Virus record (IMG/VR): IMGVR_UViG_3300025874_000006
Location: 74,352 to 138,351 of that record
Reading direction: 5' to 3' (one strand)
Length of the DNA stretch: 64,000 bases
From: a virus
Part shown: piece after piece, positions 23,601 to 54,596 of the stretch
Layout: each line of letters starts with the position of its first letter
How positions within the stretch are numbered: position 1 is the stretch's first letter
Program-made: the position numbers and the translations under genes
The notes under the pieces: model-generated
What the model was told of the DNA's origin: nothing
The model's database searches: none
The model's input: only the letters and a program-made list of their open reading frames with translations

Positions 23601-23924
23601 GTTGGTATCAAGAGAACCCGAACCTATAGCTGTCTGTAAAGCAGTCACCGCAGCAGATGTGTTTGAAATTAAAGTTTGTAGGTCACCGTCTGCCGATGAA
23701 AACGCAGCAACAATTTCTTGGAGAGTATCCAGTTGTTCTGGCGAACTTCCCAATATTGCATCAATTTGTGACTGAAGACCATCAATTTCCGAAGAAGAGA
23801 CCGCTTCACCAGTGACAGCAGCTACAAGAGTACCATCAGCATTAATTACTAATTGTCCTCCTACTACGACTTCACCAGTAATGTCGACACCATTCTGTAT
23901 TCTAAATTTTTTGTTAAAAGCCAT
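20694..23924 (-). CDS. Tail fibre with short collagen-like segment and C-terminal intramolecular chaperone (peptidase S74-like)
   Basis: [13 protein letters not shown] collagen tract; repeated [10 protein letters not shown] modules; C-terminal [39 protein letters not shown]. Confidence 0.88.
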
Positions 23925-26900: not shown

Positions 26901-29464
26901 TCAGCAGCTTGTAGAGTTTGTAGAGCAAGAATCTCACCGTCATTTGCGGTGATTTGTGCTTGGTTTGAATCAACGTCTACACGTAGACCCGCTTCAACAC
27001 CAGTTGCACGAATTACTTCAGCACCGATTGCTAGTTCGTTAACTACTTCAGCAGCTTTAGCACGTGTAACTTCAGCAGTGATTTGTGCTTGGTTATCATC
27101 ATGGTCAGATGACTGAAGAGTTGCAAGAGCAAGAATATCAGAATCGTTTGAAGTGATTTGTGCTTGGTTTGAATCAACGTCTGTACGTAGACCAGCTTCG
27201 ATACCAGTTGCACGAGTGATTTCTGAAGTGATTTGAACCTGTAGGTCTGAGTCAGCATCTTGGAAATCTGTGATAGCACCATCTACACGTAGGTCTAATG
27301 CAGCTTCTGCCGCTAGAGCACGTGCTCGTTCAGTGTTAATCGCACCTTGGTTAGCTGAGATGTTTACAGTATTAGTGTTAACGTCTGTACGTAGACCAGC
27401 TTCAATCGCTTCTGCACGTTGACGTTCTGTAACAACAGCAGTAGCATTAATAGCTTCCGCAGCAGTAGCACGAGCAACTTCAGTAGTGATTTGTGACTGT
27501 AGACCAGAATCACCAGCAATACGACTAGCAATTTCAGAAGTGATTTGACCTTGTAGGTCTGAATCGCCACCAGCGCGAGCAACTTCTTCTGCACGTAGGT
27601 CGATTTCATTCTGTGCAGCAAGAGCTTCAACAGAATCCATATCGCCTTCTAGTACTGTAGTACGTAGAGATAGTGCATTGTCAGCAGCCAAACGAGTTGC
27701 TGCTTCAGCAGAAACCTGTGCGTCTGTGTATGCAGTTGCCTGTGTTTTAGCAGTTGCGATACGAGCAGTAACAGTGTTACCAACAGTGCCGTCTACAGAT
27801 GCGTCACCGATAAGTGCAGCGTCTTGTGCGTCAGCATGTGCCTGTGCAGCTGCCTGATGTGAATCTGCCTCTGCGTCAGTGTACGACTTAGCAGATGCAA
27901 GTGTTGCAGCGTCAGCAACAATTCGAGCAGCTTCTTCAGCAGTAATCTGTGATTGTAGACCAGTGTCCGCAATTGCACGAGTTGATGCTTCAGTGTCGAT
28001 GTTAGTTTGTAGAATACCTTCAGCAGCTTCTGCACGTGCTTTCTCAGTAGAGATTGCAGTAGTGTTAGAAGAAACAAGAGCAGACATATCGCTATCAGCA
28101 TTTTGGAATGCAGAAACGATTTCTGTCAGTGAGTCTAGTGCAGCTGAGTCAGTGTTTGAAGTGATGAAGTTGATTTGAGTCTGCAAATCAGCATCTTGTG
28201 CAATACGAGCACTTTGTTCAGCAACGATTGCGGCAGTGTTAGCGTCTTCAGCAGCAGTAGCACGAGCTTCTTCCGCATCAAGTTCAGTCTGTAACGCAAG
28301 GTCACCAGCGACTCGTTCGAGTTCTTCAACAGTTAGTTCTGCTTCTGCTTTAGCAATTGCTTCTGCTTTTGCAGTTGCAATGCGGTCAGTAACAGTATTG
28401 TTTGCAGTACCATCAACAGTATCGTCACCGATGAGTAGGTCATCATGCGCCTTTGCAGATACTAGAGTTGCAGCATCTCCAGAAATGATGTCAGCGCCTA
28501 AATCAATACGAACCTGAGTATCGGCAATAGCACGTGCGTTAATTTCGTCTTGTAGGTTTTGTGCGTTTGCAGCTTCTGCACCAGTAGCACGAGCAACTTC
28601 GTCTGCAAGATCCTGAGTAAGGACACCTTCAGCAGCAGTAGCACGAGCAACTTCAGAAGTAATCTGAGACTGGAGTGATATAGATGTTGCTTCTTCAGTT
28701 GTTAGACGTGCAGATAGTGCATCGTCAGCTGAAATACGTGCAGTCTGTTCAGCAGTAACCAATGAAGTGATTGCAACTTCAGCAGCAGTAGCACGAGCAG
28801 TCTCAACAGAAATCGCAGTTGCGTTTTCAGTTTCTTTGTTGATTGCACGAGAAACTTCCGAAGTAATTGCAGCAGAGTTAGCAATGATTGAAGCAGATAG
28901 TACGTCATCCGCGTCTTCGAACGCTTTGATTACTTCTACGAACGAATCGATTGCAGCTGAATCAGTGTTGCTTAGGATGTCATCGATACGACCAGAAAGG
29001 GCTGTATCAGCAGACTGAGATGAAGCTTCAATTGAATCTTCCCGAGCTTTCGCACGAGTTTCTTCAGCAGTGATGTTTGATTGTAGTGTAATATCTGCTT
29101 GTGCACGTGTTGATGCTTCAGCAGCAATATTAGACTGTAGTAGTTGTTCTGCAACTGTCGCACGACTTGTTTCTACCGCTACCGCGTCTGCGATATCTTG
29201 AGCAACAGCAGCCTGAGCGCGAGCAGGTGTAAAGTATTGATTGTCACCTTCTTGCAAATCATCTGTTGAGAATGAAGAGAAGAACGCGTCTGCTGTAATT
29301 TTCTTTAATGAGTCAGAACCGACATCATAAAGAAGAGTAAAACAGTCCGCTGGGTTGATCATACCTGTAAGGGTTGATTGTCCCTGTACTGCACTTTCGT
29401 CAAGTTTGGTATTGATTACCGCCTTATCAGCTAGTGCTGGGGATTTAATCTGCCTAAATGCCAT
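23990..29464 (-). CDS. Very long alpha-helical (coiled-coil) virion fibre protein, 1824 aa
   Basis: About 1400 aa of Ala/Glu/Thr/Arg helical repeats (EVARATAAE, RATGVEAGLR) punctuated by LD(S/T)LxEIVxAF nodes; globular C-terminal domains (VFVGGVIQDPSVHY, YRSAKYIV..EFETRECLVIHDG). Confidence 0.75.
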   Translation of the reverse strand: MAFRQIKSPALADKAVINTKLDESAVQGQSTLTGMINPADCFTLLYDVGSDSLKKITADAFFSSFSTDDLQEGDNQYFTPARAQAAVAQDIADAVAVETSRATVAEQLLQSNIAAEASTRAQADITLQSNITAEETRAKAREDSIEASSQSADTALSGRIDDILSNTDSAAIDSFVEVIKAFEDADDVLSASIIANSAAITSEVSRAINKETENATAISVETARATAAEVAITSLVTAEQTARISADDALSARLTTEEATSISLQSQITSEVARATAAEGVLTQDLADEVARATGAEAANAQNLQDEINARAIADTQVRIDLGADIISGDAATLVSAKAHDDLLIGDDTVDGTANNTVTDRIATAKAEAIAKAEAELTVEELERVAGDLALQTELDAEEARATAAEDANTAAIVAEQSARIAQDADLQTQINFITSNTDSAALDSLTEIVSAFQNADSDMSALVSSNTTAISTEKARAEAAEGILQTNIDTEASTRAIADTGLQSQITAEEAARIVADAATLASAKSYTDAEADSHQAAAQAHADAQDAALIGDASVDGTVGNTVTARIATAKTQATAYTDAQVSAEAATRLAADNALSLRTTVLEGDMDSVEALAAQNEIDLRAEEVARAGGDSDLQGQITSEIASRIAGDSGLQSQITTEVARATAAEAINATAVVTERQRAEAIEAGLRTDVNTNTVNISANQGAINTERARALAAEAALDLRVDGAITDFQDADSDLQVQITSEITRATGIEAGLRTDVDSNQAQITSNDSDILALATLQSSDHDDNQAQITAEVTRAKAAEVVNELAIGAEVIRATGVEAGLRVDVDSNQAQITANDGEILALQTLQAADHADNQSQITAEVIRATGVEAGLRTDVDSVTGRVDAIIGTSPETLDTLQEIVAAFEDADSDIQNIITANSGRLTVNETDIDALEVRATDVESRATLVEGRATALETEQLAQSGRLTVNETDIDALETKQGTATLVTVASDLSAAINELHGEIDADVLALAALAARVTTEEANVDTLQSEMDAVEGRATSLESRVSTEEGHVDTLQTQMGSSTLATVATDVTTAVNELHTQLDAETGKVATLQVEMDNVEGRATGLETRATALETEQTLQGGRLTVNEADIDALETKLGDGVFDTTAQSITGAIDELHSETSTNTSGLASAVARADADSDALATEILDRTAADSLIRSDLAAHRVTDQADYIARDAAVLASAKSYAESEADDAEATAKIYADGIVANEATLRDNADNVLDGKISTEANTRQVADNALDSRATVLETEMTATQTAAGLNADGTYASPDSGTTNYIDLATSLTDADRKLDAAIKSGDNSRIAGDANLQSQMDAEVARATAAEGVLTTNLATEVGRATAAEAANGVLITANAVAISDESSRAQGVEGSLQNQIDFITSNTDSAALDSLTEIVSAFQSADGTLTGLITQNQTDIATNADDLVTEATTRATQDGLIRGEFAAADAGLQTQIDGKVSKSGDAMFGVLDMSGNKVGGLANGTFSSDAVNKGQLDGGLAAQHISVFSTTDLSEGDNEYFTPARARASIAVTDVDGEGNVSYNSASGVLSVSTGKKFVELEDVVDTDLVDKNGFVARVKTDGSAMELVDPKELAFNDAKRQVISGDGAQSMFALDFHTQEANAMVFVGGVIQDPSVHYSIDAVAQQITFNAALPVGTQAVVIAQSTNSVGVLDPKSVGLETLADNIKVFEQGNDIIAGTSATVVSSFNKALYRSAKYIVTVESNGEFETRECLVIHDGTNPYITEYGILFTGVNMLGDTDVQINGSSVELTYTSVIAGAVVSVSASYVDV

Positions 29465-30851: not shown

Positions 30852-31208
30852 TTACCTTGTTACCGAAGGATTAACTTTTATTTTACCTTCCAACACTCTT
30901 TCTATAATAGTGTTGCCTTCTCCATCGACATAACTTATCTCGACATCATAGACATATCTACCACGAGCAGATAGTAAATCGGTTTGGAGGTTAGATAGGG
31001 ATATAGTAACGACACCACTTGTTGAGGGTTCTGCTACGATAGCAGTGAAATCAACAGTATTGTCGGCAGTGCTTTTGAAGGTTTTCTTCATTTTAGCAGC
31101 AACCGAATACCCAGTGAGGTCTTTTGTTGATTCGTCAGGGTCTACTAGTTCTATTTGCAAAGCAAAATCAGAACCCTGATCGATTGTGAAATCTTCGTAA
31201 GTCGCCAT
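30852..31208 (-). CDS. Small Ig-like baseplate/virion protein
   Basis: TIDQGSDF..DLTGYSVAAKMKK..GRYVYDVEI..RVLEGKIKVNPSVTR, a pattern common in marine T4-like phages; late promoter at 31249-31256. Confidence 0.7.
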   Translation of the reverse strand: MATYEDFTIDQGSDFALQIELVDPDESTKDLTGYSVAAKMKKTFKSTADNTVDFTAIVAEPSTSGVVTISLSNLQTDLLSARGRYVYDVEISYVDGEGNTIIERVLEGKIKVNPSVTR

Positions 31209-31285: not shown

Positions 31286-31993
31286 TTATTCCGCAGAAGA
31301 GATATCTGCTAGAACCATCTCACGGAAATCTGCTGATTCGTCTGACCAGTCGAATACGTAAGATACTGTGCAACGCCAATCGTCTGTAGATGCAGCGTGA
31401 TACATTACTTTGTCTGACTCATCGTAATGTCCAAAGTATGCTGCTTTACAAGTCCACTTACCAGCTTCATCTTGACAACGTACCACTTCCTTTGTTTCAG
31501 GATGGATGTAGTCGAAGTAACCAGAACCATCTTCTGAGTAAGAGAAGATTAAGTTGAAGCCTGGAGCGTTAGCATTGTTGTGCCAAGAGATGAATCCACC
31601 TGGCGGATATACTGCTGCAAGAGCATTATGTTTAACGGATAAGAAGTTCATCATCTTATCGTTTAAGTCACGTAGGTGATGAGTCATGTCACGTTTGAAG
31701 ACAGGGTCAGCGTCCTTCTCAAACATTTGATGAGCACGGTCAGAAAGTTTGAAGTTGTAACCGACCAACTGGTCTGGGAAACCTTCGTGTTCTTTTCCTT
31801 GCCCAACAATCTCTTCCATGTGCACAGGGCCTACGTAAAAATTACGTTGACGTTTATGTTGTGCAGAAGTAAGGTGACAGTTTTCTTCAAAACCGTTTAT
31901 GGTATGCAACTTGGAGTATTCGTTTAGAATTTCAAGCAGTTCAGGGTTATTAACCTCAACATGCTTGAGATATTGGTCGTTTACCTGTGTCAT
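31286..31993 (-). CDS. 2OG-Fe(II) oxygenase-like protein
   Basis: YPPGGFISWHNNAN, distal His YHAAS, RCTVSY; HxN in place of the canonical HxD. Confidence 0.65.
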   Translation of the reverse strand: MTQVNDQYLKHVEVNNPELLEILNEYSKLHTINGFEENCHLTSAQHKRQRNFYVGPVHMEEIVGQGKEHEGFPDQLVGYNFKLSDRAHQMFEKDADPVFKRDMTHHLRDLNDKMMNFLSVKHNALAAVYPPGGFISWHNNANAPGFNLIFSYSEDGSGYFDYIHPETKEVVRCQDEAGKWTCKAAYFGHYDESDKVMYHAASTDDWRCTVSYVFDWSDESADFREMVLADISSAE

Positions 31994-32742
31994 ACGATTG
32001 GAGTATCCTTATTTAAACCTGCTGAGAAGTGACGTATAATCACTGGGCCCGTTTCAGGTTTTGTGATCGCCCAGTTAAGAGCGTTATAATAGTTCCACCT
32101 CAAGTCGTCATCGAAGATACCAACCTTGAGATCCTTATATTTTTCTTCTTTGTTGGTCAACCACCAGAGAGAGAACTGATCCCAAGACTTGAGACTGTCC
32201 GCATATCCTTTTGGCCACCAAGTATCGTTCATTTGTCTGAACGTTAAGTCCCACCAGTCATCCATGAATTCACGGACAATCGGTTTAGACATATCATATA
32301 AACAGACAGCACCACATAATGTGAATTTAGAAACTCCCTCTGGAGTATCAAAATCTCTTTCCGCGTAAATATAGTCACGGTCATCTGTAAGGGCGGTGAA
32401 TACCACATCGTGGTCTTTCATCTCATCCCATACCTTGGTGATGTCTTCATGCTCAACTTCCATGTCAGCATCAATATACATCGTTATATCGTATGGTGTT
32501 TTTGCCATACCATACAACTTAGCGCGATAGTGGTCGTCACATAATATAATATCATCCGCAACGTCGCGACCACGGTCATCTAGGAACCTTTCTTCAGTTA
32601 CTAGACATATTTTACAATCGTCTTCTGGTTCATAGTAATCTCTTAGAGACTCTGCCAGATTGATTGCATACAAGTAAAAGTTGCGTTTCTTAGACGCAAC
32701 GATTATAAATCCTTTACTCTTTTCCATCTGTCTCGGCCTCAA
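31990..32742 (-). CDS. Glycosyltransferase-like protein (GT-A fold, DxD)
   Basis: TPYDITMYIDADM, WDQFSLW, WNY..IIRHF; resembles GT8-type nucleotide-sugar transferases. Confidence 0.7.
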   Translation of the reverse strand: MRPRQMEKSKGFIIVASKKRNFYLYAINLAESLRDYYEPEDDCKICLVTEERFLDDRGRDVADDIILCDDHYRAKLYGMAKTPYDITMYIDADMEVEHEDITKVWDEMKDHDVVFTALTDDRDYIYAERDFDTPEGVSKFTLCGAVCLYDMSKPIVREFMDDWWDLTFRQMNDTWWPKGYADSLKSWDQFSLWWLTNKEEKYKDLKVGIFDDDLRWNYYNALNWAITKPETGPVIIRHFSAGLNKDTPIV

Positions 32743-33181
32743 GCTGAAGTTGGTCTTGTAAAATCATAATTGACCACATGTCCACTTCAATCCTTGATTT
32801 TGCCCGGCGCAACTTTGCCTTCAACTTACGGTTCTTAGAGTTTTTAATCTCTTCAACTTCAAATGCTTCCAACTTATAGTTGAATAACTTCTCAAGCTTT
32901 CGTGCCTTTTGATGTTCATCTTCACGAATTTTTTCTTCTTCAACTTGTGCCTTCTTACGGACAACCCTATCTGTAGTTTCCCTATCGACAGCGTCTTCAC
33001 CCAAGGCATCAATTACTTCATTGAATAATTCGTTCTCACTACCGTCCTTATCGTGACGATGTAAAAACATCTGTTGGCGTGTAACTCGACCAACGTCATC
33101 TTCAAGTTCTAGGATACAGTTCAGTTCTTTCTTTTCTTCTGTTTCCCAGAATGCATTATCCATCCACTGCTTACGACTCAT
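32714..33181 (-). CDS. Hypothetical protein
   Basis: 155-aa charged helical ORF overlapping the start of the GT-like gene. Confidence 0.75.
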   Translation of the reverse strand: MSRKQWMDNAFWETEEKKELNCILELEDDVGRVTRQQMFLHRHDKDGSENELFNEVIDALGEDAVDRETTDRVVRKKAQVEEEKIREDEHQKARKLEKLFNYKLEAFEVEEIKNSKNRKLKAKLRRAKSRIEVDMWSIMILQDQLQLEAETDGKE

Positions 33182-33228: not shown

Positions 33229-33268
33229 GAGATAAGTGGGTCAAATGAATGACCCACCGTTCTATCTC
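33229..33268 (-). other. Intergenic hairpin between the repeat-fibre gene and the downstream enzyme genes
   Basis: GTGGGTCA-TTCATT-TGACCCAC core, extended by GAGATA/TATCTC; no U tract. Confidence 0.55.
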
Positions 33269-33291
33269 ATATTATACCACAGTACAGTCGA

Positions 33292-36200
33292 TTAAGCAAC
33301 CCGTACGTATAAGGTATATGTTTCTGGGGTGTCGAATGACGTTCCACTAATCGTCTCACCGGCATAATTACCAGTGAATGAACGAGAGTAATTACCAGCG
33401 AAGTCATTGTTATAGTTTCCACCGAATGTACGAGAGTAGTTACCCACGAAGTCACCAGCATATGCAGATGCACGATTGCGAGAGTAAACACCAGTATATG
33501 ATGAATTACGTATTCTTGCGTAAGCTGATACGCGAACTCTAGCGTAATCACCAACGTAATCAGTGGAGAATGTGCCAGCATACTCACCAACAAATCCACG
33601 TGAATAGTTTCCTACAAAGTCACCTGTGTAATCGCGAGTGTAATTACCAATGTAATCACCAGTGAAGGTGGTTGCATAATTACCAGTGAAGTTACCTACA
33701 TATTCGCGAGAATACGTTCCTACGTAGTCACGTGAGTAGTTACCAGTGAATGTATTGGAATATGTTCCACTATATTGACCAGAGAAGTCACGTGAGTAGT
33801 TACCAATGTAGTTACCACCAAATGCACGAGTGTAAGTACCAGCATAAGCTCCAGCATACTCACCAACAAACGTTCGGTTATAGGTACCAGTGTACTCACC
33901 AGTAAAGCCGCGGGAGTAGTTGCCTACGTACTGACCAGAGAATTCACGTGAGTAGTTACCAATGTAGTTACCACCAAAGTCACCAACGTAATTACCGACA
34001 AAGTTGCCAGCGAAGTCACGAGCATAATCCCCCGCGAAAGTACGGGAGTAATTACCGGCAAAGTCACCTGCGAAATCAGTTATACGGTCACGAGAGTATG
34101 TTGATGCTCGGTTATTCACATATGAAGACACACGAGTGGTAATATATGCGGAGTAACGAGTACGAGCAGAGGCACGGGTATACTCACCAATGAAGTCTCC
34201 GGCATACTCACCCGCAAATCCACGTGCGTAGTCACCAACAAAATCACCAGCAAAACCACGAGCATAATTACCTACGAAGTTCCCACCGAAGTTAGTTACT
34301 CGGTCTCTAGTGAATGCACCAGAATAGTCTGTAATGCGAGTACGTGCGTAAGATGAAGAACGATTGAGAATAGAGTCACGAGTACTTGTGCGAGCATAGT
34401 TACCTACGAAGTCGCCAGCATAGTAACCGACACGAGTATAGTTACCAGTGTTGGTAAATGTCTGAACACGGTTACGGGTATATGCAGCTGCATAGTTGCC
34501 AGTGTAGTATAATGTGCGAGTATAGTAACCAGTATTTGTAGAAGTACGAGTACTTGTACGAGCATAAGCTCCATTATAAGTGCCAGTGCGGGTACGAGCA
34601 TAGTCACCGACATAGTACAATGTCGCTGCACGGTTGCGAGAATAGTCACCAGCGTATGAGAACGCACGGTTACGAGTGTAGTTACCAGTATAGGTGGCAC
34701 CACGAGTACGAGCATAGTCACCAGCGAAGTTACCAGTAAAGTTAGTTACACGGTCACGTGAGTAGTTACCAGTATATGACGCGGCACGAGTACGACTATA
34801 GTCACCAACAAAGTTGCCAGTATATACGGTTGCACGATTACGTGAGTAATTACCTACATATGAGAATGCGCGGTTACGACCATAGTTACCAGTATAGGTG
34901 GCACCACGAGTACGGCCATAATTACCAGCATAGTATAAAGTGCGAGTGTAGTTACCAGTATATGACGCGGCACGAGTACGACCATAGTTACCAGTATAGG
35001 TGGCACCACGAGTACGAGAATAGTCACCAACGTAGTACGCTGTTACGGTGTTACTAACATAGTTACCAATGTAGTTACCAGCAAAGTTGCCAGTAAAGTT
35101 GCCAGCATAACTACCACCGCCGGGAGGAGTCGTTCCGAATCCAGTACCCCAATAATAAGAATATGCGGCCGCATAATTAGTATCCCTATAGTAAGTATTT
35201 GAACCATATGGGTTAGCAACTACAACGGATGTTACTAAAAGGGCATCAGAATAATGACTGAAGTACTGACTATATCTCAGGTATCCACCAATGTGTATCT
35301 TAAGCGTACCTGAGTTATTTGTTGAAGCGAAAACTTCCCAAGATGTGCCTGGGTTGGTCGATGAGTTACCAGTATATGCATATTGACCATTAGTACCACC
35401 AGTCGTAGACGTGCGAGTAGAAGTACGAGTACTTGTACGAGAATAGGTAGTAGATCTAGTGTAATATGAAGTTGCGCCTACACGAGTTCGACCATAGTTA
35501 CCAACGTAAGAAGCAGCCCGGTTACGAGAATAGTCACCAACGTAAGAAGCAGCACGTGCACGAGTATATGTTCCAGTACCTGTCCCAGTTCTTGCGTAAT
35601 CACCAACGTAAGACGCAGTACGGTTACGAGAATAGTTACCGGCATAAGAACCAGTACGAGTGCGACCATAGTTACCTACGAAGTCACCAGTGTAGTTTGT
35701 TACACGAGTTCGACCATAGTTACCAACGTAAGAAGCAGCCCGGTTACGAGAATAGTTACCTACGAAGTTACCGGCATAGTCTGTTACACGAGTTCGACCA
35801 TAGTTACCAACATAAGATGCACCACGTGCACGAGTATATGTTCCACCATAAGTGCCAGTACGAGTTCGACCATAGTTACCAGTGTAAGTGACACCAGTGG
35901 TACTTGTGCGAGCGTAGTTACCCACGTATGAGAATGCACGTTGACGAGCATAGTTACCTACGAAGTCGCCTGCATAGTACAATGTACGAGAGTATGCTGG
36001 AGTAGCAGAGTAGTCCGCTGAATAGTTACGAGCATAGTTGCCGGTAAAGTCACCAACATAATATAGTGTACGAGTGTAGTTTAGTGTACGAGTAGAAGTT
36101 CTAGTAGAAGTTCTTGCGTATTCGCCTACGAAGTCACCGATATAGTTACCAACAAAGTTTCTTGCGTAGTCACCTACGAAGTCGCCAGTAAAGTTACGAG

Positions 36201-37956
36201 CGTAATTACCTACGAAGTTACCAGCAAAGTCAGTTACACGGTCACGTGCATATGCAGAGTAACGTGTGCGTGTTGATGTGCGAGCATAAGCTGAGTAACG
36301 AGTTCTAGCAGAAGCGCGAGTAGAAACACGAGCGTAGTCACCGATAAAGTCTCCGGCAAAAGCACGAGAATAGTTGCCTTCGAAATTTCGTGAATAATCA
36401 CCCACGAAAGTCCTTGCATAGTTACCTACAAAGTTGCCAGCAAAGTTAGTAACACGATTGCGGGTGTATGCAGATACTCTAGCGCGAGAGAAGACCCCTG
36501 CGAAGTTAGTTACACGATCACGAGAATATTCGGTGATGCGTGTACGAGTATAGTCTAGTGAATAAGAAGAAGTTCTTGTACGACTATAAGTGCCTGCATA
36601 AGCAGACCCACGAGTGCGAGAATAAGTCCCCGCATAAGCAGATACTCGGTTACGTGTATAAGTGCCACTATATGTTCCGGCATATGAAGAAACTCGTATG
36701 CGAGTGTAATCAGCGGAATAGGTTGAAGCACGAGTGCGTGAATATTCACCTGTGTATGTTGATACTCGGCCTCGTGTATAAGAAGATGGACGATTACGAG
36801 AATAAATTCCACTAAAGTAACTTACACGGTCGCGGGTATATGTTGATACACGTGCACGACTATAAGTTCCAGTAAAAGTTGCAGCGAAAGCAGTCAATCG
36901 ATTACGTGAGTAAGTTGAATTACGGGTGCGTGAGTAAGTTCCAGCGAAAGTTGAGTTACGTGTTCTTGTATACTCTCCGGTAAAGTCACGGGAGTAATTA
37001 CCTCCAAAGTCACGCGAATATACACCAGTGTACTCGCCTACAAATTCACGAGAGAAGTCTGCAATACGATTAGTGGTGTAAGAAGAAACTCGGTCACGGG
37101 TATAGGCTGATACTCTAGTACGCACATACGCAGATGCACGAGTACGTGAGTAATCGGCAGTAACGATTGAACGTTGAGTATTCTCAGCAGAACCACGTGG
37201 GGCCCATGTACCGGATGAAGTTGGAACACCTTGTGCAGATGAACGCAACTGGTATGAACCAATTTCACCTGCTGTCGCTCGAAGGGATTTAGCACGTTGA
37301 CCAAGAGTGTACTTGATCTCTGCGTCTGACATTTCTTTTAGACCATTAAACGATGAGGTACCGTCATAATCGGTCGCAACTGGACGAACTGTTGTAACAC
37401 CAGCTGGTGGCGTCGCAAGAGTAACTCTTTTCCAGATATGATAATTTACTGACGTACCGTCTCCCAGAGTATTGGAAAACACAGTATCAATGTGTTTAGC
37501 CCAGTCACCGCCTGGGGATGTGACAGAAAGTTCGAATGCACCTTGAAGACCTAAAGTCTCTAGATTTTTTAGTGCACGGTTGGTTAAGTTATCCAAATCT
37601 GCGTCTACCATTTCGTAGAAGCCTGGGTTTGGTTCAACTTCGTAATAACCGACAGGACGGACAAAATCAGTACCAGTTTCACTTGCAGAACCACCTACCT
37701 GTTTAAGGGTAGTAGTTACTGTAGTACCTGTGATGTTTGACAACGGGTGAGTACCCTCTGGTTCATTGTAGTACGTATCTACATATGAACCGATGCTAAC
37801 ACCATCAGTTAAACTGATATCACCGACATCACCAGCAGAGGCCTCTGCTAGTGCTTCGCCCACCTTTACAGCGAGATACATCTCTTCTGTAGGTGTTAAT
37901 TCCTGTAGGTCACCATTAGCATTTTTAATTTTTAGTGGTATACTAGATGCTGACAC
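33292..37956 (-). CDS. 1554-aa Tyr/Arg/Gly tetrad-repeat protein; predicted self-pairing long beta-hairpin fibre
   Basis: 268-aa N-domain, 585-aa repeat arm, 96-aa core, 585-aa repeat arm, 20-aa tail; own late promoter at 38007-38014. Confidence 0.85.
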   Translation of the reverse strand: MSASSIPLKIKNANGDLQELTPTEEMYLAVKVGEALAEASAGDVGDISLTDGVSIGSYVDTYYNEPEGTHPLSNITGTTVTTTLKQVGGSASETGTDFVRPVGYYEVEPNPGFYEMVDADLDNLTNRALKNLETLGLQGAFELSVTSPGGDWAKHIDTVFSNTLGDGTSVNYHIWKRVTLATPPAGVTTVRPVATDYDGTSSFNGLKEMSDAEIKYTLGQRAKSLRATAGEIGSYQLRSSAQGVPTSSGTWAPRGSAENTQRSIVTADYSRTRASAYVRTRVSAYTRDRVSSYTTNRIADFSREFVGEYTGVYSRDFGGNYSRDFTGEYTRTRNSTFAGTYSRTRNSTYSRNRLTAFAATFTGTYSRARVSTYTRDRVSYFSGIYSRNRPSSYTRGRVSTYTGEYSRTRASTYSADYTRIRVSSYAGTYSGTYTRNRVSAYAGTYSRTRGSAYAGTYSRTRTSSYSLDYTRTRITEYSRDRVTNFAGVFSRARVSAYTRNRVTNFAGNFVGNYARTFVGDYSRNFEGNYSRAFAGDFIGDYARVSTRASARTRYSAYARTSTRTRYSAYARDRVTDFAGNFVGNYARNFTGDFVGDYARNFVGNYIGDFVGEYARTSTRTSTRTLNYTRTLYYVGDFTGNYARNYSADYSATPAYSRTLYYAGDFVGNYARQRAFSYVGNYARTSTTGVTYTGNYGRTRTGTYGGTYTRARGASYVGNYGRTRVTDYAGNFVGNYSRNRAASYVGNYGRTRVTNYTGDFVGNYGRTRTGSYAGNYSRNRTASYVGDYARTGTGTGTYTRARAASYVGDYSRNRAASYVGNYGRTRVGATSYYTRSTTYSRTSTRTSTRTSTTGGTNGQYAYTGNSSTNPGTSWEVFASTNNSGTLKIHIGGYLRYSQYFSHYSDALLVTSVVVANPYGSNTYYRDTNYAAAYSYYWGTGFGTTPPGGGSYAGNFTGNFAGNYIGNYVSNTVTAYYVGDYSRTRGATYTGNYGRTRAASYTGNYTRTLYYAGNYGRTRGATYTGNYGRNRAFSYVGNYSRNRATVYTGNFVGDYSRTRAASYTGNYSRDRVTNFTGNFAGDYARTRGATYTGNYTRNRAFSYAGDYSRNRAATLYYVGDYARTRTGTYNGAYARTSTRTSTNTGYYTRTLYYTGNYAAAYTRNRVQTFTNTGNYTRVGYYAGDFVGNYARTSTRDSILNRSSSYARTRITDYSGAFTRDRVTNFGGNFVGNYARGFAGDFVGDYARGFAGEYAGDFIGEYTRASARTRYSAYITTRVSSYVNNRASTYSRDRITDFAGDFAGNYSRTFAGDYARDFAGNFVGNYVGDFGGNYIGNYSREFSGQYVGNYSRGFTGEYTGTYNRTFVGEYAGAYAGTYTRAFGGNYIGNYSRDFSGQYSGTYSNTFTGNYSRDYVGTYSREYVGNFTGNYATTFTGDYIGNYTRDYTGDFVGNYSRGFVGEYAGTFSTDYVGDYARVRVSAYARIRNSSYTGVYSRNRASAYAGDFVGNYSRTFGGNYNNDFAGNYSRSFTGNYAGETISGTSFDTPETYTLYVRVA
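33355..35109 (-). repeat. C-terminal repeat arm (585 aa of 4-residue units)
   Basis: Units such as YAGN FTGN YSRT RGAT; degenerate 12/24/36-bp DNA repeats. Confidence 0.9.
35398..37152 (-). repeat. N-terminal repeat arm (585 aa of 4-residue units)
   Basis: Units such as YSRT RASA YVRT RVSA FVGE. Confidence 0.9.
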
Positions 37957-38082: not shown

Positions 38083-38562
38083 TTAAATATCTAATGTTGG
38101 CCATACAACATCATCTAAAGAACCTACTATTGACATATCCAAAGTCTCTGTGATATCACGCAATTCTTGTCTATACGACATGATGGTTTGTCGTTCTTCT
38201 TCTGTAAAGGGAGAATCGACAACAAGCATCCAATCAGTCTCTATGATTTTTTGGTTGCGGACAAATCGTATTTCGTTAACAATATGTTCTATGTCCCATA
38301 CCCATTCACCGTTTTCCCACGTAGCGTATACATTTGGTTTTGGTGGAACCTCAATAAACATCTGGTCATCTTCGTCCCAGACGCGAGTATTCATGAACTC
38401 CATCTCGCTAAGGCCTTCCAAATCCCAAATCCTATGAACTAGTCTATCATCGTCTACGGAATGACCGTCTTCCGGATACATTCCATTATCCATGTCGGTT
38501 CTTACGATTACGCCTGCTTCTGTATGTATGGCGACTTTAGGGTGCATCTTATATCTCTCCAA
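38083..38562 (-). CDS. Tail fibre assembly chaperone-like protein
   Basis: C-terminal IRFVRNQKIIETDWM..DSP..YRQELRDIT..VVWPT motif of phage tail assembly chaperones. Confidence 0.85.
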   Translation of the reverse strand: MERYKMHPKVAIHTEAGVIVRTDMDNGMYPEDGHSVDDDRLVHRIWDLEGLSEMEFMNTRVWDEDDQMFIEVPPKPNVYATWENGEWVWDIEHIVNEIRFVRNQKIIETDWMLVVDSPFTEEERQTIMSYRQELRDITETLDMSIVGSLDDVVWPTLDI

Positions 38563-40571: not shown

Positions 40572-41825
40572 TTAACTCAATCTACCTAATTTAACCCGTA
40601 TATTATTACTCTCAAATATTGAAATAACATCATTTGTTATCTCCATATGAGAACCCGTTTCATTCGTACCTATATCTAGTTGTCCAGTAACTGTTGCATT
40701 TGACAACCGGACTTCGTTACCAGAAACAGTAAACGGTTGAATCTCATTATTAGAGGCATTAATTATTTTGAATGTGTCTGCGGTTATCGCAAAGTTTGCA
40801 GTGCTCCCGTTATTGTCTAAACGAATTCCTGCGATGTGATTGTTGACATTTAGGTCAAGTGCATAAACTGCACTAGCGCCAGAACTATTTGCAAGAGTGG
40901 TCAAAGATTGATTGACACTAGCAAAGTTGCTATCGACACTGGACGTTAATGCTGTTATGTCGTTCGCCTGAGAGGTCACTCGGCCGTCTATTAATGCGAC
41001 AGTCGCTGACAGTGCACTACGTGCGTTTGCTTCTGCCTGAATCTCCGCACCTGTGGTACTATCAAGAGCAGTAAGTGCAGCATCCAATGAAGTAATCTTA
41101 GCCGCTTCCAGTGTCATCTTATCACTATCAGCATCAAGTCTGAGGGTCAACTCATCCAGTGCACCACCGATTGCCTCAGTAACCTGTTCTGGGGTAAGGT
41201 CGATTCCATCTGTGATTAGTTGGTTGAGGTCTATGTTTAACTGCGTCACGTCCCCTACGACAGCGGACAACCCATTAGAGTTTGCAGTCACAGTAGAGGT
41301 CAATGCACTTACGGCATTAGTCTGGATATCGATTCGGTCATTGGTCGCAGAATCTAAAAGAAGTAAACTTGCATTTACACTGTCTATGTTGCCTGCAAAT
41401 ACACTAACACTACTATCTGTTGCATCGATACGTGAAACTAGACTGGTGTTTGCATTCGCAATAGCATTTGCAAGTAAGTCAGAATCGATACCACCTAGAA
41501 CAACGCCTTCAAGTTGCGCTCGAGTTTCAGCCTGTTGAGTTGCGAGAACAGTGATTCCACTATCGGTCTGAGTGATACTTGCATGTAATGTCAATAGTGA
41601 GGCTGCGTTCGCTGCAATACCTGCTTCAACATCAGTTAGGTCAACGTTAGTAGTTAGAGTGAATTGACTCAAATATTCTTGGTTAACTACATTGGTGATA
41701 TTTGCAGAATCGAGACCACCACCAAAAGCTCCTGTTGCTACCAACTCGAAGTTTTCATTAATCTTATCGAATGCCGCATTGACATTATCCGCAAGATTGA
41801 CTAATTGTATGTTACCTGTGCTCAT
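40572..41825 (-). CDS. Coiled-coil fibre/tip protein with DUF1983-like domain
   Basis: N-terminal NAAFDKINENF, heptad stalk, YALDLNVNNHIAGIRL..ANFAITADTFKI, C-terminal RVKLGRL as in lambda gpJ-like tips. Confidence 0.75.
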   Translation of the reverse strand: MSTGNIQLVNLADNVNAAFDKINENFELVATGAFGGGLDSANITNVVNQEYLSQFTLTTNVDLTDVEAGIAANAASLLTLHASITQTDSGITVLATQQAETRAQLEGVVLGGIDSDLLANAIANANTSLVSRIDATDSSVSVFAGNIDSVNASLLLLDSATNDRIDIQTNAVSALTSTVTANSNGLSAVVGDVTQLNIDLNQLITDGIDLTPEQVTEAIGGALDELTLRLDADSDKMTLEAAKITSLDAALTALDSTTGAEIQAEANARSALSATVALIDGRVTSQANDITALTSSVDSNFASVNQSLTTLANSSGASAVYALDLNVNNHIAGIRLDNNGSTANFAITADTFKIINASNNEIQPFTVSGNEVRLSNATVTGQLDIGTNETGSHMEITNDVISIFESNNIRVKLGRLS

Positions 41826-42051
41826 CTTTATCCTCTACTAAACGAAAAAGCAATTCTTTTATTTGATTCATATCAGTTCTTAGAGCGTCAACTTCGCTAG
41901 TTAGATTGATGATATGGGCTTCTTTTTGTTGCGTTACTATTTTTAGTTTTCTTGCTCTTTCTATTTCGTTTCTATTGGTATTTAGGATAGCACCAGTTCG
42001 TCTATCCCTCACTAAATTACTATGTCCACTGACTCGTTGATGTCTGTCCAT
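41812..42051 (-). CDS. Small conserved hypothetical protein
   Basis: GHSNLVRDRRTGAILNTN plus C-terminal coiled coil; coupled to the upstream baseplate gene. Confidence 0.75.
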   Translation of the reverse strand: MDRHQRVSGHSNLVRDRRTGAILNTNRNEIERARKLKIVTQQKEAHIINLTSEVDALRTDMNQIKELLFRLVEDKDEHR

Positions 42052-45000
42052 TATACCACCAGAGCAATCACTCGAAGGTCTCTAATGATAGGAGACTTAC
42101 TTGAGTTGGTAGACTTCATCTCAATCTTCACTTGGAATACCGAGAACAAGTCAGCGTCAACTGTATACTCGTAATCGCGGAACACTTCAGGGTCTTCGTC
42201 AGAAGGGATTATTTTATCCGTAGGTACTAATACCCAATCAATTACAGAGTCACCTTCAGAATCAACCTGATTCAAACTATCTTCATCAGCTGCAGTTCTA
42301 ATATAAACGTCAAACTCTGATGTTGAAGGTCGGTTCGCTGCAAATATAATCTTCAGACCCACCGAGGATTCGTCAACCACTGTAGGTGTAGTTATATGTT
42401 GTGCAGAATCATCGAGTCCGATAACATTCTCAAGAGTAAGAACCGAAGTCCTTTGTAGGTCAACAATCGGAGAGACCTTAGAGTCTTGGGTAGCCAAAGT
42501 GATAGAAAGTGACAAGTTAGGAGATGTCCCCGCATTGTCTTCTGTCGATACAACCTTCGGGGTGGTGTTGATATTAATATCATTCAAGAAAACTAATTGG
42601 TTTCCTGTACTGTTGTACAGGTTACTTGGAGTTCCAGAAGAACGACCACTTCCGTATGATGAACCTTCTGTAGTACTTCCTTGGGCAACAACGGTTGTTG
42701 TGTTCGGGGTAAGCGTCTGTATTAATGGAACGAACTGGTCAAACATAACTTGTTGAGATGCAGTCACGTCATTACCACCACCTACAGAACTACCGGACGC
42801 TAATGTTGTTACGTCTATAGTATACCCTTCCCAAGTTGGATTTATAACTTGGAATAGACCTTCTAGGTCAGATGTGAGTAACCCGCCTGTACCATTGGTC
42901 ACGTCCGATATAGACACGGTATCACCAGAAGTGAACCCGTGACCTTCATGGCTAACAGTAACCAGAGAAGAACCAGAAGTAGTTTCGAAAGGGTCTGTCC
43001 CTAGAGTGACCTTCGGTAAAGGTGCGTTATCAAGAAGAAGTGTTCCGGAAGCACTGAAGTCTGCACGGTCTAATTCGAACATGAGGTCTTTAGTTTGATC
43101 GGGTGTCCAAGTAAATCCGTTCTGTGATAGGAATAGTGAACCTAGAGTAGGTTGTTTAGATACCCTATCCTCTCTTGAACCAAATACATTCTTATAAGTC
43201 TCGGCAATATAAACGTTATACTCTACCGACTCTGCAAGTAGGATTATCGCATATTCTTCACCACTTGTCAAGTAAATTGGTTCATCAAACTCAACTATTG
43301 TTGCAGCTGCTTGGACATCTTCGATTGTTTCTGGGTTTGTCGCAACGGTAATATCAGCAGGGTCGATAAACTTAACTGCGCCAGGCAGAATAATGTTTGT
43401 AGGAATACCATTCTCTACTGAACGAATCTGTACCTGTAGTGGAATGTTTTGGTCGACAGTCTCAACGAAGATACGTGCCTTGGTCAAAAACATACCATTT
43501 GGATTTTCTATCTGGTCTACAAAGAAAGTCTGTGCAAGTGGGTCTCTTCGACCAGCACGTCTACCTACCAAACGAGTACTACGTACAGTTCTCTGTACGT
43601 TTTCAATTGTACCTGTAGAGGTGTAAGATGCACGAGTAGAACAAAGTGCTTCAGTTTCATCATCAACACTTACGTCTAATAGTTTAAATTCCTGTGTACC
43701 CGTACGGAAGTTTATGGCAGAAGTGTTCGGTAGGAAGAACGTACCGATTATCTCACCCTTAGAATCTGTTTCTAAAGTAGTTGATCCACCAAGAACAGCA
43801 GGGTATCCAGTTGCATTTGCATATTGGCTACCAAACTCTTGAGTATCATCAGAGAAGTTAGTTGCGGTTACTTCTTGTCGTACCCATGCACTGACATCAA
43901 CCCCACCAAAGAATGCGAACATTTTAGTATTAGGTCGTAGTCCTTTAACAGTAAAGTTGATTCTACGAGAACGCATGAACGGAACAATTTCTACGTTTGC
44001 TACTTGTTCACCGATGAAGTCTTGAATGCTTCGTGATGCTGTTCGGAAAGACACGTCTCTAGGTATTGTGGTAAACAAACCACTGTTACTGGCATTGTTA
44101 CTCAATCTACCCGAGCGCAAAGCTGGTCTAGTATCGAAATCTTCCGTGCGAGTTTCGTCAAATCTACGAATAGTAGTTTGCATGATAGGTGGTAGGTTAC
44201 GAGTCTCTACCCATTCATCTGATGATGGAGACAGGTTCATATGTCCTGTCTGAGTGATTACCGCAAATGGGTTGACGTTCATTGTACTAGTTGCTAACAA
44301 CTGTGACACCAACGAAACATCGATATATGGTAGAGTTACTAGATCACCCTTCTTAGTAACAGAAGTTGTATTGTCTGTACTATACACCATTCGTACGGAG
44401 TTCTCACGGAAAGACGGTTTCAACCGACCATTAGGGTCGATGGAAGCTCGGTAGTCCTGATTATCGATATCCGAGAAATCAAAGTTAGTAAAGTTGTCTG
44501 CGATGAATCCCGCCTTAGTTCTGGAAAGACCATTATCATCTAATACATTTAATGTATTGGTATTAGTTTCCAAAAGACTTAGTGTGGTCAATTCGTATAG
44601 ATCTTCTACTCTCTCCGATAGTTTGGAGATGTCTTTCATCGTAAATCGTTTGTTTGGAATATATGTGCTTGAAAGATCGGTGACTCCAAAAGTGTATGGA
44701 TTCAACTTGAACTTATACAACGCAAGAGAACCTGTAGGCACTTCTGGTTCACGTGGACTTTCAGCTGGTTCGCCTTGGACAACTTGTAACTCACCAAACC
44801 CAATGTCCCCTCGACTGTCTATAGCATTAGCAACAAGTATGTCGATACGAGGCAAGTAGTACGACATATTGTTGATAGTAATTGCCGAAGAATTCTGGGG
44901 TAATGGGAAAATGTCGAATTCGTTAGTGTAACTAGAAGTGGGTTTCCTGACTGGTCGGAAGTCTAGTACGTCACGTAGAGAAATCACTTCACCTGTAACT

Positions 45001-53666: not shown

Positions 53667-54596
53667 TTAGAGATAGTCATCACCATCTAATGTTTCGTAT
53701 CCTGAAGACATGTCTAGGTTACCATCATCGAGTGACGCAGCTTTAACACTGACCCAATCCGCAACAGTACCATAGTCGTTCATAAGGTCTTCTAGGGAGA
53801 CATTGGTGAACCTGTTTAGAGTCTCTAGTGAACTAATAATGATTCCAGTATCCACTCCATCTTCTTCCATAGTCAATAGATTGTATCTGGAAGTCATTGC
53901 GGTTGGTAGAGCAGTACCCTGAATCGCAATTGGATAGTTAGGTATTTCTAGTGGGTCAGTCGTAACACCAGCACGTAAATTGATATCCGCAGTACTGAGG
54001 AGTTCAACTTCGGCAGCCAGATAGAATCCAGCAGGGTGTACCAACTTCTTATAGAGTGCTTCATAGTCATTAAAGGACAGACCTGTTTTCAAAAGAACCG
54101 AGAATATTTGGTATCTCTTGTTGTCTTGAATATACTTCAATGATTCAGGCCCAATGAGAGAACCACCTGGCTTATCATTCAATATGAAGATGTTACGCTT
54201 CGGGTATGACACCTCGACAGTTTCATTGTAGAATGCTTTGAAGAACTGTTCAGCAGATAACTGTGTACCCTTGTTACGGTAGAACTGAGAAAGAAGTCTT
54301 GCCATCAATCGTGGGTTCTGATAGAATGAGGACGACTCTAAACCGTCACTGATCTCTCCTATCAAAAGGTCTAGATGTCTGATATCAGTAGAAGAAATGT
54401 TTCTTATATTAAACAAATCCTGAATTTGTTCATTAAATGAAACAGATCCGTCTTCTCCAGTATACTTGTAGTACGCCTCGATGAATCTAATAAGATCAGG
54501 ATATTGTTCCTGATAGAATTCAGGAAGTATCTGAGTTACATGACTCTGATGAAACTTAGTATTCGTTCTGTACTGATTAGCAAGAAATTGTGACAT
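53667..54596 (-). CDS. Baseplate wedge protein (short gp7-like)
   Basis: LPEFYQEQYPDLIRFIEAYY, FYRNKGT..FFKAFY, YKKLVHPAGF; follows gp6. Confidence 0.75.
   Translation of the reverse strand: MSQFLANQYRTNTKFHQSHVTQILPEFYQEQYPDLIRFIEAYYKYTGEDGSVSFNEQIQDLFNIRNISSTDIRHLDLLIGEISDGLESSSFYQNPRLMARLLSQFYRNKGTQLSAEQFFKAFYNETVEVSYPKRNIFILNDKPGGSLIGPESLKYIQDNKRYQIFSVLLKTGLSFNDYEALYKKLVHPAGFYLAAEVELLSTADINLRAGVTTDPLEIPNYPIAIQGTALPTAMTSRYNLLTMEEDGVDTGIIISSLETLNRFTNVSLEDLMNDYGTVADWVSVKAASLDDGNLDMSSGYETLDGDDYL

What the first reader, a model, noticed from the sequence alone, without database searches (positions are those of the whole stretch)
33292..37956. A protein that is its own mirror complement: two 585-aa arms that pair tetrad by tetrad
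Seen in sequence: after a 268-aa N-domain the protein parses into 4-residue units, with arm 1 = residues 269-853 (37152-35398), a core of 96 aa, arm 2 = residues 950-1534 (35109-33355) and a 20-aa tail, which sums to 1554. Reading arm 1 forward against arm 2 backward, every unit starting with a non-aromatic residue (mostly Arg or Ser: RASA, RVSS, STRT) faces a [F/Y]-x-Gly unit (FTGN, FVGE, YAGD), in both directions. For example arm 1 units 2,4,6,8 (RASA,RVSA,RVSS,RIAD) face FTGN,FAGN,FGGN,FVGN, and arm 1 units 10,13,15 (FVGE,FGGN,FTGE) face RASA,RNSS,RVSA. About 70 such pairs were checked by hand with no exception, although the order of units is aperiodic. Inference: the chain folds back into one very long antiparallel beta-hairpin with a cross-strand pairing code, in which bulky Arg and aromatic side chains pack over Gly. 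Fully extended at about 0.33 nm per residue it would be roughly 190 nm long. Established precedent is limited to much shorter fold-back hairpins such as the T4 gp37 needle tip; I do not recognise a described fibre with this code.
Basis: partly seen in the sequence, partly recalled or inferred. Interest (0 to 1): 0.97.

Follow-up and report, generated by a model that had tools for sequence, protein, structure and literature searches.

The report
Fold-back zipper shaft of phage fibre
A 1,554-residue protein of an uncultured T4-like cyanophage has two 585-residue halves that complement each other in mirror order, and its relatives keep the two halves equal in length, so the chain very probably runs out and back as one extremely long two-stranded rod, a fibre shaft I found described nowhere.

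Summary
In the ORF at 33292-37956 (-), 70 of the 71 four-residue units that do not start with an aromatic residue face an aromatic-x-Gly unit in the other arm. On the anti-diagonal i+j=1800 there are 74 Arg:Gly pairs and no Arg:Arg pair. The score is 65, against 14.7±3.0 after shuffling unit order, at most 29 in shifted registers and 22 in parallel alignment. The DNA is not palindromic.

The protein founds an unannotated family of 331 clusters. All members share a ~265-aa N-domain and a C-terminal strand, with a middle of about 50 to over 3,000 residues. In about 20 distinct relatives the arms pair without gaps and are equal in length (230 to 880 aa). Indels between relatives come in same-size pairs at mirrored positions. 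A 3,347-aa relative tiles its 1,044-aa outgoing arm with return blocks separated by globular inserts.

AlphaFold2 on a 368-aa member models the C-terminal strand with high confidence alongside the N-domain. The tip is hypervariable, or in some relatives only a Pro/Gly loop placed exactly midway.

The best reading is a fold-back antiparallel β-ribbon shaft of a virion fibre. The fold, the oligomeric state and the ~190 nm length remain inferred, because structure prediction of the arms failed.

The parts
37153..37956 (-). N-terminal globular domain (residues 1-268). It is the family-defining anchor domain. GTG start.
   Evidence: It is conserved at the N-terminus of 331 protein clusters and 80 viral loci. 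In the AF2 model of the 368-aa homologue, pLDDT is above 90 over residues 1-245. It has no Pfam, PHROG or PDB sequence match. The best fold match is weak: Z 6.8 to MACPF C-terminal / MABP-like beta-prisms.
35398..37152 (-). Arm 1 (residues 269-853), the outgoing strand. It is a period-4 repeat built of aromatic-x-Arg-x, Arg-x-Ser-x and aromatic-x-Gly-x units.
35110..35397 (-). Tip or core (residues 854-949). It is a non-repeat, hypervariable, beta-rich segment at the turn of the hairpin.
   Evidence: It is 29-42% identical to relatives whose N-domain is 78-89% and whose arms are 65-78% identical. Other relatives replace it with an 8-14-aa Pro/Gly/Asp loop placed exactly midway. No homologue of the tip alone was found.
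33355..35109 (-). Arm 2 (residues 950-1534), the return strand. It is the mirror complement of arm 1, residue i pairing with residue 1800-i without a single gap.
33295..33354 (-). C-terminal tail (residues 1535-1554) ending in the conserved strand ETYTLYVRVA. The stop codon is at 33292-33294.
   Evidence: The motif T-x-x-T-[YV]-x-L-[YW]-V-R-x-A closes nearly every complete family member from 309 to over 3,200 aa. In the AF2 model of the short homologue the last ~24 residues have pLDDT 95-97, like the N-domain, while the hairpin between them scores 41-51.
38083..38562 (-). Upstream neighbour, a tail-fibre assembly chaperone-like protein (159 aa).
   Evidence: Pfam PF16778 Phage_tail_APC, 51.6 bits against a cut-off of 26.6; phrog_4912. 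A homologue lies 133-246 bp upstream of the family gene in about 20 loci. It is not known whether it serves this protein or the preceding fibre gene.
31286..33181 (-). Conserved downstream module of three small genes (155, 250 and 235 aa) that travels with the family. They are candidate partners of the N-domain.
   Evidence: By tblastn over the 81 loci held, they lie directly downstream in 29, 68 and 64 loci, including next to the 315-370-aa short members. None has a family assignment.

Best explanation
The gene encodes a virion fibre protein of an uncultured T4-like cyanophage. The shaft of the fibre is a single chain folded back on itself. The chain leaves a globular N-terminal anchor domain and runs outward for 585 residues as a period-4 beta-strand repeat. 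It then forms a 96-residue hypervariable tip and returns for exactly 585 residues, antiparallel and in register with the outgoing strand. It ends with a conserved 20-residue strand that packs back onto the N-terminal domain. One face of the two-stranded ribbon carries the pairing code. Aromatic residues recur every four positions and line up in both arms. Between them, an Arg in one arm is always met by Gly, Phe/Tyr or Ser in the other and never by Arg. As a result an Arg-x-Ser-x unit can only face an aromatic-x-Gly-x unit. This steric and stacking complementarity (Arg guanidinium groups layered between aromatic rings, with Gly making room) fixes the register along the whole shaft. Length is tuned in evolution by removing or adding matching pieces of both arms, or by swapping the distal part, tip included, as one nested cassette. 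Shown here: the mirror complementarity, the equal arms, the paired indels, the adjacency of the two termini in the sequences of short members, and the tail-module context. Inferred: beta-ribbon geometry, physical contact between the arms, oligomeric state, the ~190 nm length, and the role of the tip in host binding.
For: Complementarity in the window protein: 70 of 71 units, R:G 74 against R:R 0, and z about 17 against shuffled unit order. It is also far above shifted and parallel registers. It is not a nucleic-acid palindrome.

Equal arms: about 20 distinct complete relatives from viral contigs give ungapped pairing. It runs from just after the N-domain (residue ~255-269) to 15-23 residues before the C-terminus. 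Arm lengths are 230, 378, 386, 398, 420, 422, 433, 527, 576, 578, 592, 603, 612, 615, 663, 768 and 880 aa, with R:G 21-98 against R:R 0-6. The gapped-DP score is 371 against 93±12, 381 against 92±11 and 153 against 58±7 after the arms are shuffled.

Paired indels, all in P0001 residue numbers. A 12-aa difference at ~325-342 goes with a 12-aa difference at 1454-1465 in six relatives. The same holds for 702-713 with 1083-1094, 16 aa at 597-612 with 16 aa at 1187-1202, and 28 aa at 629-656 with 28 aa at 1149-1176. Insertions of 58 aa at 626-652 go with 58 aa at 1162-1189.

Phage C48C1 homologue (3,347 aa): arm 1, residues 262-1305, is tiled completely by return blocks separated by globular inserts. 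R:G is 117 and R:R is 1.

Distant members with other unit orders are still complementary. The pooled pair table from relatives with N-domain identity of 67% or less gives G:R 569 (137 expected), F:R 318 (71), Y:Y 499 (95) and R:R 7 (85).

The midpoint is a Pro/Gly/Asp loop flanked by 42|9|41, 31|14|30 and 13|11|10 residues in relatives that lack a tip domain.

Termini: members of 309-370 aa consist of the N-domain, a mini-hairpin and the same C-terminal strand. AF2 with an alignment gives pLDDT above 90 for the N-domain and 95-97 for the C-terminal strand, with long strands in between.

Context: the gene lies in the baseplate and tail-fibre block of a 151-kb myovirus record. The tip is hypervariable.
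Against: No structural model of the arms was obtained. AF2 on residues 700-1100 gave pLDDT 29, and the hairpin of the short homologue scored 41-51. The pair matrix used on relatives was trained on this protein, and close relatives inherit their arms by descent. Part of the agreement is therefore not independent. The independent parts are the paired indels, the far longer C48C1 arms and the distant members. Among aligned homologous columns no R:G to G:R point swap was seen (497 kept, 0 swapped). A matrix-free test over the whole family is positive but noisy: the core is centred in 45 of 134 proteins against 16 expected. The arms carry about +88 net charge (154 Arg against 66 Asp+Glu, no Lys), which is unusual for a free-standing rod. 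Presence in the virion and position on it are not shown.
Confidence: 0.8

Rival explanations
1. The arms do pair antiparallel, but between chains. Two (or 2n) fully extended chains lie head to tail, so arm 1 of one chain pairs with arm 2 of the other and each C-terminal strand docks on the partner's N-domain. The result would be a double-ended rod about twice as long.
For: It predicts the same mirror complementarity, equal arms and paired indels. A monomer AF2 run cannot tell own-chain docking from partner-chain docking.
Against: In several relatives the exact centre is a short Pro/Gly/Asp turn-like loop. Some short members pair with a core of only 1-3 residues. This is what a reversal of the chain needs and an extended chain does not. 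A fibre with anchor domains at both ends and the hypervariable part in the middle fits no known virion appendage. The tip is hypervariable like a distal end.
Confidence: 0.08
2. The arms do not touch. The repeat region is a parallel beta-solenoid, a triple beta-helix or a disordered low-complexity stretch. On this view the mirror pattern reflects compositional gradients (Arg-rich near the N-domain, Gly-rich near the C-terminus).
For: Arm 1 is richer in Arg (90 against 64) and arm 2 richer in Gly (85 against 61). Repeat proteins of phage fibres are usually parallel trimeric beta-structures (general knowledge).
Against: Shuffling unit order keeps composition yet drops the score from 65 to 14.7±3.0. 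A shift of the register by eight residues (i+j = 1792 or 1808) gives -21 or -6, and the best score in any other register is 29. The best parallel alignment scores 22. Complementarity runs in both directions (47 and 27 R:G pairs). Phase shifts coincide in both arms. Gradients cannot explain same-size indels at mirrored positions.
Confidence: 0.03
3. The pattern is an artefact or a nucleic-acid feature: an assembly chimera, an inverted duplication, or an mRNA or DNA hairpin that imposes the pattern on the protein.
For: Mirror symmetry in a gene usually means an inverted repeat in the DNA.
Against: There is no inverted repeat beyond three marginal 20-22-nt pairs. Base complementarity at mirrored positions is at background level. 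The same architecture recurs in more than 100 independent metagenomic proteins and in a GenBank phage genome.
Confidence: 0.01

Closest known systems
Needle domain of the T4 long-tail-fibre tip, gp37 C-terminal region (Bartual et al. 2010, recalled from my own knowledge; needle about 150 x 25 Å per PMC3004832)
   Same: It is a phage fibre in which each chain runs to the distal tip and comes back. The out and return strands are antiparallel, and the receptor-binding tip is encoded in mid-segment rather than at the chain end.
   Different: There is no sequence or profile similarity. There are no His-x-His metal sites: 0 His in 1,170 arm residues. The arms are roughly ten times longer. The repeat is a period-4 Arg/Gly/aromatic complementarity code. 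The N- and C-termini meet in one globular domain. Length varies from about 40 to about 1,040 residues per arm across the family. A trimeric state is not shown here.
Trimeric beta-structured fibre shafts: adenovirus triple beta-spiral, triple beta-helix of T4 gp5/gp12 and tailspikes
   Same: They are short sequence repeats with alternating residues and Gly at fixed positions that build long thin virus fibres.
   Different: In those shafts successive repeats of parallel chains stack on one another. Here the signal is antiparallel between two distant halves of one chain, and parallel alignment shows no signal.
Alpha-helical coiled coils (heptad knobs-into-holes code). An analogy only.
   Same: It is a simple positional code that sets partner, orientation and register over hundreds of residues, with length varied by adding repeat units.
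   Different: The secondary structure differs (period-4 beta pattern). The pairing is heterotypic and aperiodic along the rod. No helix-forming composition is present.
Extended single-layer or few-stranded beta rods such as OspA or SasG (my own knowledge), and the aromatic-Gly cross-strand pair preference in antiparallel sheets (Merkel and Regan 1998, my own knowledge)
   Same: They are thin beta-sheet rods without a conventional hydrophobic core, in which large side chains cover Gly on the neighbouring strand.
   Different: Those proteins are tens of nanometres long at most and are built of domains. None has a two-arm mirror code, and none was tested here.

Membership tests
T4 gp37-type fold-back needle | Sequence or profile similarity to gp37 and related long-tail-fibre proteins | tested here: not met
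   There are no Pfam hits, only two weak PHROG hits to families of unknown function, and no PDB sequence hit at E<=1.
T4 gp37-type fold-back needle | His-x-His repeats that bind metal ions on the fibre axis | tested here: not met
   Neither arm contains a single His.
T4 gp37-type fold-back needle | The chain reverses at the distal tip, so the out and return strands are antiparallel and adjacent | tested here: met
   This is met at the level of sequence complementarity and comparative evidence only. No structure is available.
T4 gp37-type fold-back needle | Homotrimer | not testable with these tools
   No usable oligomer model was obtained, and sequence alone does not fix the number of chains.
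Phage tail fibre or receptor-binding protein (generic) | The gene lies in the tail/baseplate module next to fibre and chaperone genes | tested here: met
   The baseplate wedge genes are at 47012-48346 and 54596-56443. Fibre genes are at 49034-51508, 40572-41825 and 20694-23924. A Phage_tail_APC chaperone is at 38083-38562. The C48C1 annotation shows the same setting.
Phage tail fibre or receptor-binding protein (generic) | Conserved virion-proximal part and hypervariable distal part | tested here: met
   The N-domain is 78-89% identical to close relatives and the tip only 29-42%. Some relatives have no tip domain at all, so tip-mediated binding is not general.
Phage tail fibre or receptor-binding protein (generic) | Present in the virion and binds the host | not testable with these tools
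   No cultured host or proteome is available. The only GenBank phage carrying the family is C48C1, where the gene is annotated as hypothetical.
Parallel beta-solenoid or triple beta-helix shaft | Neighbouring repeats along the chain stack on each other, so any complementarity is between nearby or parallel units | tested here: not met
   The best parallel alignment of the arms scores 22 against 65 for the antiparallel one.
Collagen-like or Gly-X-Y fibre | Period-3 Gly repeat | tested here: not met
   The period is 4, with an aromatic residue every fourth position. A true collagen-like fibre gene lies elsewhere in the window, at 49034-51508.
The unnamed family defined here (N-domain + fold-back repeat + C-terminal strand) | N-terminal ~265-aa domain, C-terminal L-[YW]-V-R motif, and a mirrored repeat between them | tested here: met
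   There are 331 clusters with E<=1e-3 for the N-domain. 110 of the 159 proteins held carry the C-terminal motif. Base-anchored pairing is seen in many of them.

The most novel reading that the evidence does not exclude
This is a new class of fibrous protein architecture. It would be a two-stranded antiparallel beta-ribbon hundreds of residues long, up to about 1,040 per arm. Its register is set by a simple, aperiodic, heterotypic four-residue pairing code (Arg-x-Ser-x against aromatic-x-Gly-x on an aromatic ladder). That would make it a beta-strand counterpart of the coiled-coil heptad code. Phages would use it as a length-programmable shaft that evolves by nested cassette exchange and can carry globular domains as side decorations on the return strand.
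Probability: 0.5. Interest if true: 0.95.

Novelty: new variant of a known kind. Interest (0 to 1): 0.87.

Why it matters
If the arms pair as the sequences say, this is a natural protein rod whose register, length and partner choice are written in a readable four-residue code. It would be a template for designing long beta-ribbon materials. It would also be a test case that current structure predictors fail on. The finding gives a first structural reading for a family of at least 331 unannotated protein clusters from aquatic phages, with lengths from about 310 to over 3,300 residues. It predicts fibres from about 15 nm to over 300 nm on cyanophage relatives that matter for marine carbon cycling. 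The paired-indel pattern is also an unusually clean example of compensatory evolution at the level of whole repeat units.

Tried and rejected
1. Trimer prediction of residues 754-1046 in three copies returned no verdict (score 0.00, own fold uncertain). It counts neither for nor against.
2. AF2 without an alignment on residues 700-1100 gave pLDDT 29 and is unusable.
3. Fold searches with the model of the short homologue found nothing significant. Foldseek against PDB and BFVD gave no hit at E<=0.001. The wide VIA search gave a best Z of 6.8 to MACPF C-terminal / MABP-like beta-prisms, which is within the range of chance matches.
4. The ESM Atlas gave only unnamed viral clusters, all below 0.9.
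5. A 20x20 mutual-information scan and an aromatic-only scan of anti-diagonals did not single out the register in relatives. They are too noisy, because the lattice is periodic.
6. A point-swap covariation count found no R:G to G:R swaps among aligned columns.
7. A search for the tip domain alone found no relatives.
8. Seven literature searches (cyanophage fibre structures, Kyanoviridae, fold-back or needle fibres, two-stranded ribbons, C48C1) found no description of this family or code.
9. A median-position test of non-arm residues was dropped because a uniform scatter would pass it too. It was replaced by the longest non-lattice stretch test.
10. The subfamily with the N-Y-T-x-x-Y type repeat (P0003-P0009) follows the rule near the base. 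It was not resolved further with the matrix trained here.
Full report
WHAT IS THERE. The ORF at window 33292-37956 on the minus strand starts with GTG and encodes 1,554 residues. After a 268-residue non-repetitive N-terminal part the sequence becomes a period-4 repeat built of three kinds of unit: aromatic-x-Arg-x, Arg-x-Ser-x and aromatic-x-Gly-x. A 96-residue non-repeat stretch (854-949) interrupts the repeat, and 20 non-repeat residues follow it.

IS THE MIRROR PATTERN REAL.
- Unit level. Arm 1 read forward was paired with arm 2 read backward. Every unit that begins with a non-aromatic residue (44 in arm 1, 27 in arm 2) faces a unit that begins with an aromatic residue. 70 of those 71 partners have Gly at the third position.
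- Residue level. The anti-diagonal i+j=1800 holds 74 Arg:Gly pairs (47 in one direction, 27 in the other), no Arg:Arg pair and 70 aromatic:aromatic pairs.
- Controls. A simple score (R:G minus R:R minus G:G) is 65 at 1800 and 55 at 1802, and between -27 and +29 in every other register. Shuffling the order of the units of arm 2 keeps composition, unit grammar and length, yet the maximum over all offsets is 14.7 ± 3.0, never above 28 in 2,000 trials. The best parallel alignment gives 22.
- Shared irregularities. The aromatic lattice jumps by two positions about 420 residues from the base and jumps back at about 520, in both arms alike.
- Not a DNA feature. Inverted repeats are absent. Base complementarity at mirrored nucleotide positions is at background level.

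RELATIVES.
- Known libraries. The protein has no Pfam family, only two weak PHROG hits to families of unknown function, and no relative of solved structure.
- Size of the family. The N-domain alone finds 331 clusters at 50% identity in 1.84 billion proteins and 80 viral contigs. Among 50,697 GenBank phage records it finds only Phage C48C1, classed in Kyanoviridae, where the gene is annotated as hypothetical.
- Shared parts. Complete members share the N-domain and a C-terminal strand (T-x-x-T-[YV]-x-L-[YW]-V-R-x-A). They range from 309 to over 3,200 residues.
- Equal arms. A hairpin alignment was run with a pair matrix learned from the window protein. In about 20 distinct relatives it returns ungapped pairing. 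The pairing starts right after the N-domain and ends 15-23 residues before the C-terminus. Arms measure 230 to 880 residues, with R:G 21-98 against R:R 0-6. Scores are three to four times those of the same proteins with shuffled arms.
- The turn. Where the alignment stops short of the turn, the remainder is symmetric. In relatives without a tip domain a Pro/Gly/Asp loop sits with 42|9|41, 31|14|30 or 13|11|10 residues on either side.
- Paired indels. Differences between the window protein and its relatives come as same-size pairs at mirrored positions. Examples are 12 aa with 12 aa in six relatives, 16 with 16, 28 with 28, and 58 with 58.
- C48C1. The 3,347-residue C48C1 protein has a 1,044-residue outgoing arm. 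It is tiled completely by return blocks of 454, 278, 76, 67, 70 and 74 residues, plus one doubtful 25-residue block. Globular inserts separate the blocks. R:G is 117 and R:R is 1.
- Distant members. Members with other unit orders are still complementary. One example is a 954-residue protein whose Gly-type units sit in arm 1 and whose Arg-type units sit in arm 2.
- Pooled pair counts. In relatives with N-domain identity of 67% or less, the counts are G:R 569 (137 expected), F:R 318 (71), Y:Y 499 (95), R:S 241 (108) and R:R 7 (85).
- Matrix-free check. Over 134 proteins the longest non-lattice stretch is centred in 45, against 16 expected. This is positive but noisy.

THE TWO ENDS MEET. The shortest members (309-370 aa) are the N-domain, a short Tyr-x-Gly-x hairpin-like stretch and the same C-terminal strand. 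AlphaFold2 with a 65-sequence alignment of a 368-residue member gives pLDDT above 90 for residues 1-245 and 95-97 for the last ~24 residues. The stretch between them scores 41-51 but is drawn as long strands. A terminal strand modelled this confidently next to a poorly modelled stretch is most simply read as packed on the N-domain. Any longer member must therefore bring its C-terminus back to its N-domain.

CONTEXT.
- The record. The window is part of a 151-kb viral record estimated 91% complete. It carries a T4-like structural module: sheath, large terminase, baseplate wedge and tube cap, several fibre genes and a collagen-like fibre.
- Upstream. A tail-fibre assembly chaperone-like gene (PF16778) lies directly upstream.
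- Downstream. Three small genes of unknown family follow the gene. They accompany family members in 29, 68 and 64 of the 81 loci held, and short members have them too.
- The tip. It is hypervariable: 29-42% identity where the N-domain is 78-89% identical.

MECHANISM.
- Shown: mirror complementarity, equal arms, paired indels, a central turn, termini adjacent in sequence architecture, and the tail-module setting.
- Inferred, the fold. The arms form a two-stranded antiparallel beta-ribbon. One face carries the aromatic ladder, with Arg stacked between rings and Gly or Ser making room. The other face carries small polar residues and Val.
- Inferred, the register. The code excludes Arg:Arg clashes, which fixes the register.
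- Inferred, the length. It is about 0.33 nm per arm residue, or about 190 nm here.
- Inferred, the topology. The N-domain anchors the rod to the particle, and the turn or tip is the far end.
- Arm composition. The arms hold 154 Arg but no Lys, His, Cys, Trp or Met. This points to a role specific to the guanidinium group rather than to charge alone.
- Still open. The physical register (1800 or 1802) and the number of chains cannot be told from sequence.

RIVALS. Inter-chain antiparallel pairing of extended chains predicts the same statistics. It does not explain the turn-like loops at the exact centre or the near-zero cores of some short members. I give it 0.08. A parallel or non-contacting repeat with compositional gradients is contradicted by the shuffle, shift and parallel controls and by the paired indels (0.03). 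Artefact or nucleic-acid palindrome is excluded and by recurrence in independent samples (0.01).

COMPARISON AND NOVELTY. Functionally the nearest thing is the needle of the T4 gp37 tip, where each chain runs to the tip and back. That comparison rests on my own knowledge. The needle size is taken from PMC3004832. Membership fails on sequence similarity and on the His-x-His metal sites. Scale, code and the joined termini also differ. Seven literature searches found no description. I file it as a new variant of a known kind, a fold-back phage fibre. I give an even chance that, once solved, it will count as a new class of fibrous fold.

LIMITS. Structure prediction of the arms failed. The pair matrix was trained on the query, and close relatives share ancestry. 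No point-swap covariation was seen. Virion location and host are unknown.

Noticed in passing
window 33355-37152 (arms of the protein): The 1,170 arm residues contain 154 Arg but no Lys, His, Cys, Trp or Met, and only 2 Pro. Net charge is about +88.
   Followed up: partly
window 31286-33181 (-), three ORFs of 155, 250 and 235 aa: This downstream gene trio of unknown family travels with the fibre family in 29, 68 and 64 of 81 loci. It also sits next to the 315-370-aa short members. It is more conserved than the fibre arms.
   Followed up: partly
window 30852-31208 (-): This 118-aa ORF has a sub-threshold match to the LtfC-like beta-sandwich (PF23926, 25.1 bits against a cut-off of 27). Its C48C1 counterpart is annotated as L-shaped tail fibre assembly protein.
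   Followed up: no
L001:7606-17649 (Phage C48C1, 3,347-aa homologue): Globular domains of roughly 130-330 aa are inserted only in the return arm, at five places. There is also an exact tandem duplication of about 74 aa near residues 2008-2155, which may be real or an assembly artefact.
   Followed up: partly
protein P0002 (1,798 aa, truncated at a contig end): A close relative carries a roughly 600-aa insertion with FG-GAP-like (PF14312) and LamG-like (PF13385) domains inside the N-domain.
   Followed up: no
proteins P0003-P0009 and P0011: Subfamilies use other repeat dialects. One is an N-Y-T-x-x-Y type with few Arg or Gly. Another has a Phe/Gly-rich arm 1 against a Ser/Thr/Asn/Arg-rich arm 2 that has few aromatics. 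The rule that a non-aromatic residue faces an aromatic residue holds near the base, but the full pairing was not resolved.
   Followed up: partly
loci L021, L022, L023, L027 (relatives of 1,157-2,059 aa): These long relatives have no tip domain. The turn is only an 8-14-residue Pro/Gly/Asp loop, so host binding by a tip domain cannot be general for the family.
   Followed up: partly
window 49034-51508 (-): This 824-aa collagen-like tail-fibre protein gives very strong matches to many PHROG tail-fibre families.
   Followed up: no
window 12480-20183, 23990-29464, 42051-47003 (all -): Three further giant ORFs (2,567, 1,824 and 1,650 aa) lie in the same structural block. The last matches phrog_358 of unknown function at E=0.
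   Followed up: no
window 33267-33599, 34404-34721, 35466-35891 and other short ORFs inside the gene: These ORFs overlap the repeat region in other frames or on the other strand. They are by-products of the repetitive sequence and I do not read them as genes.
   Followed up: no
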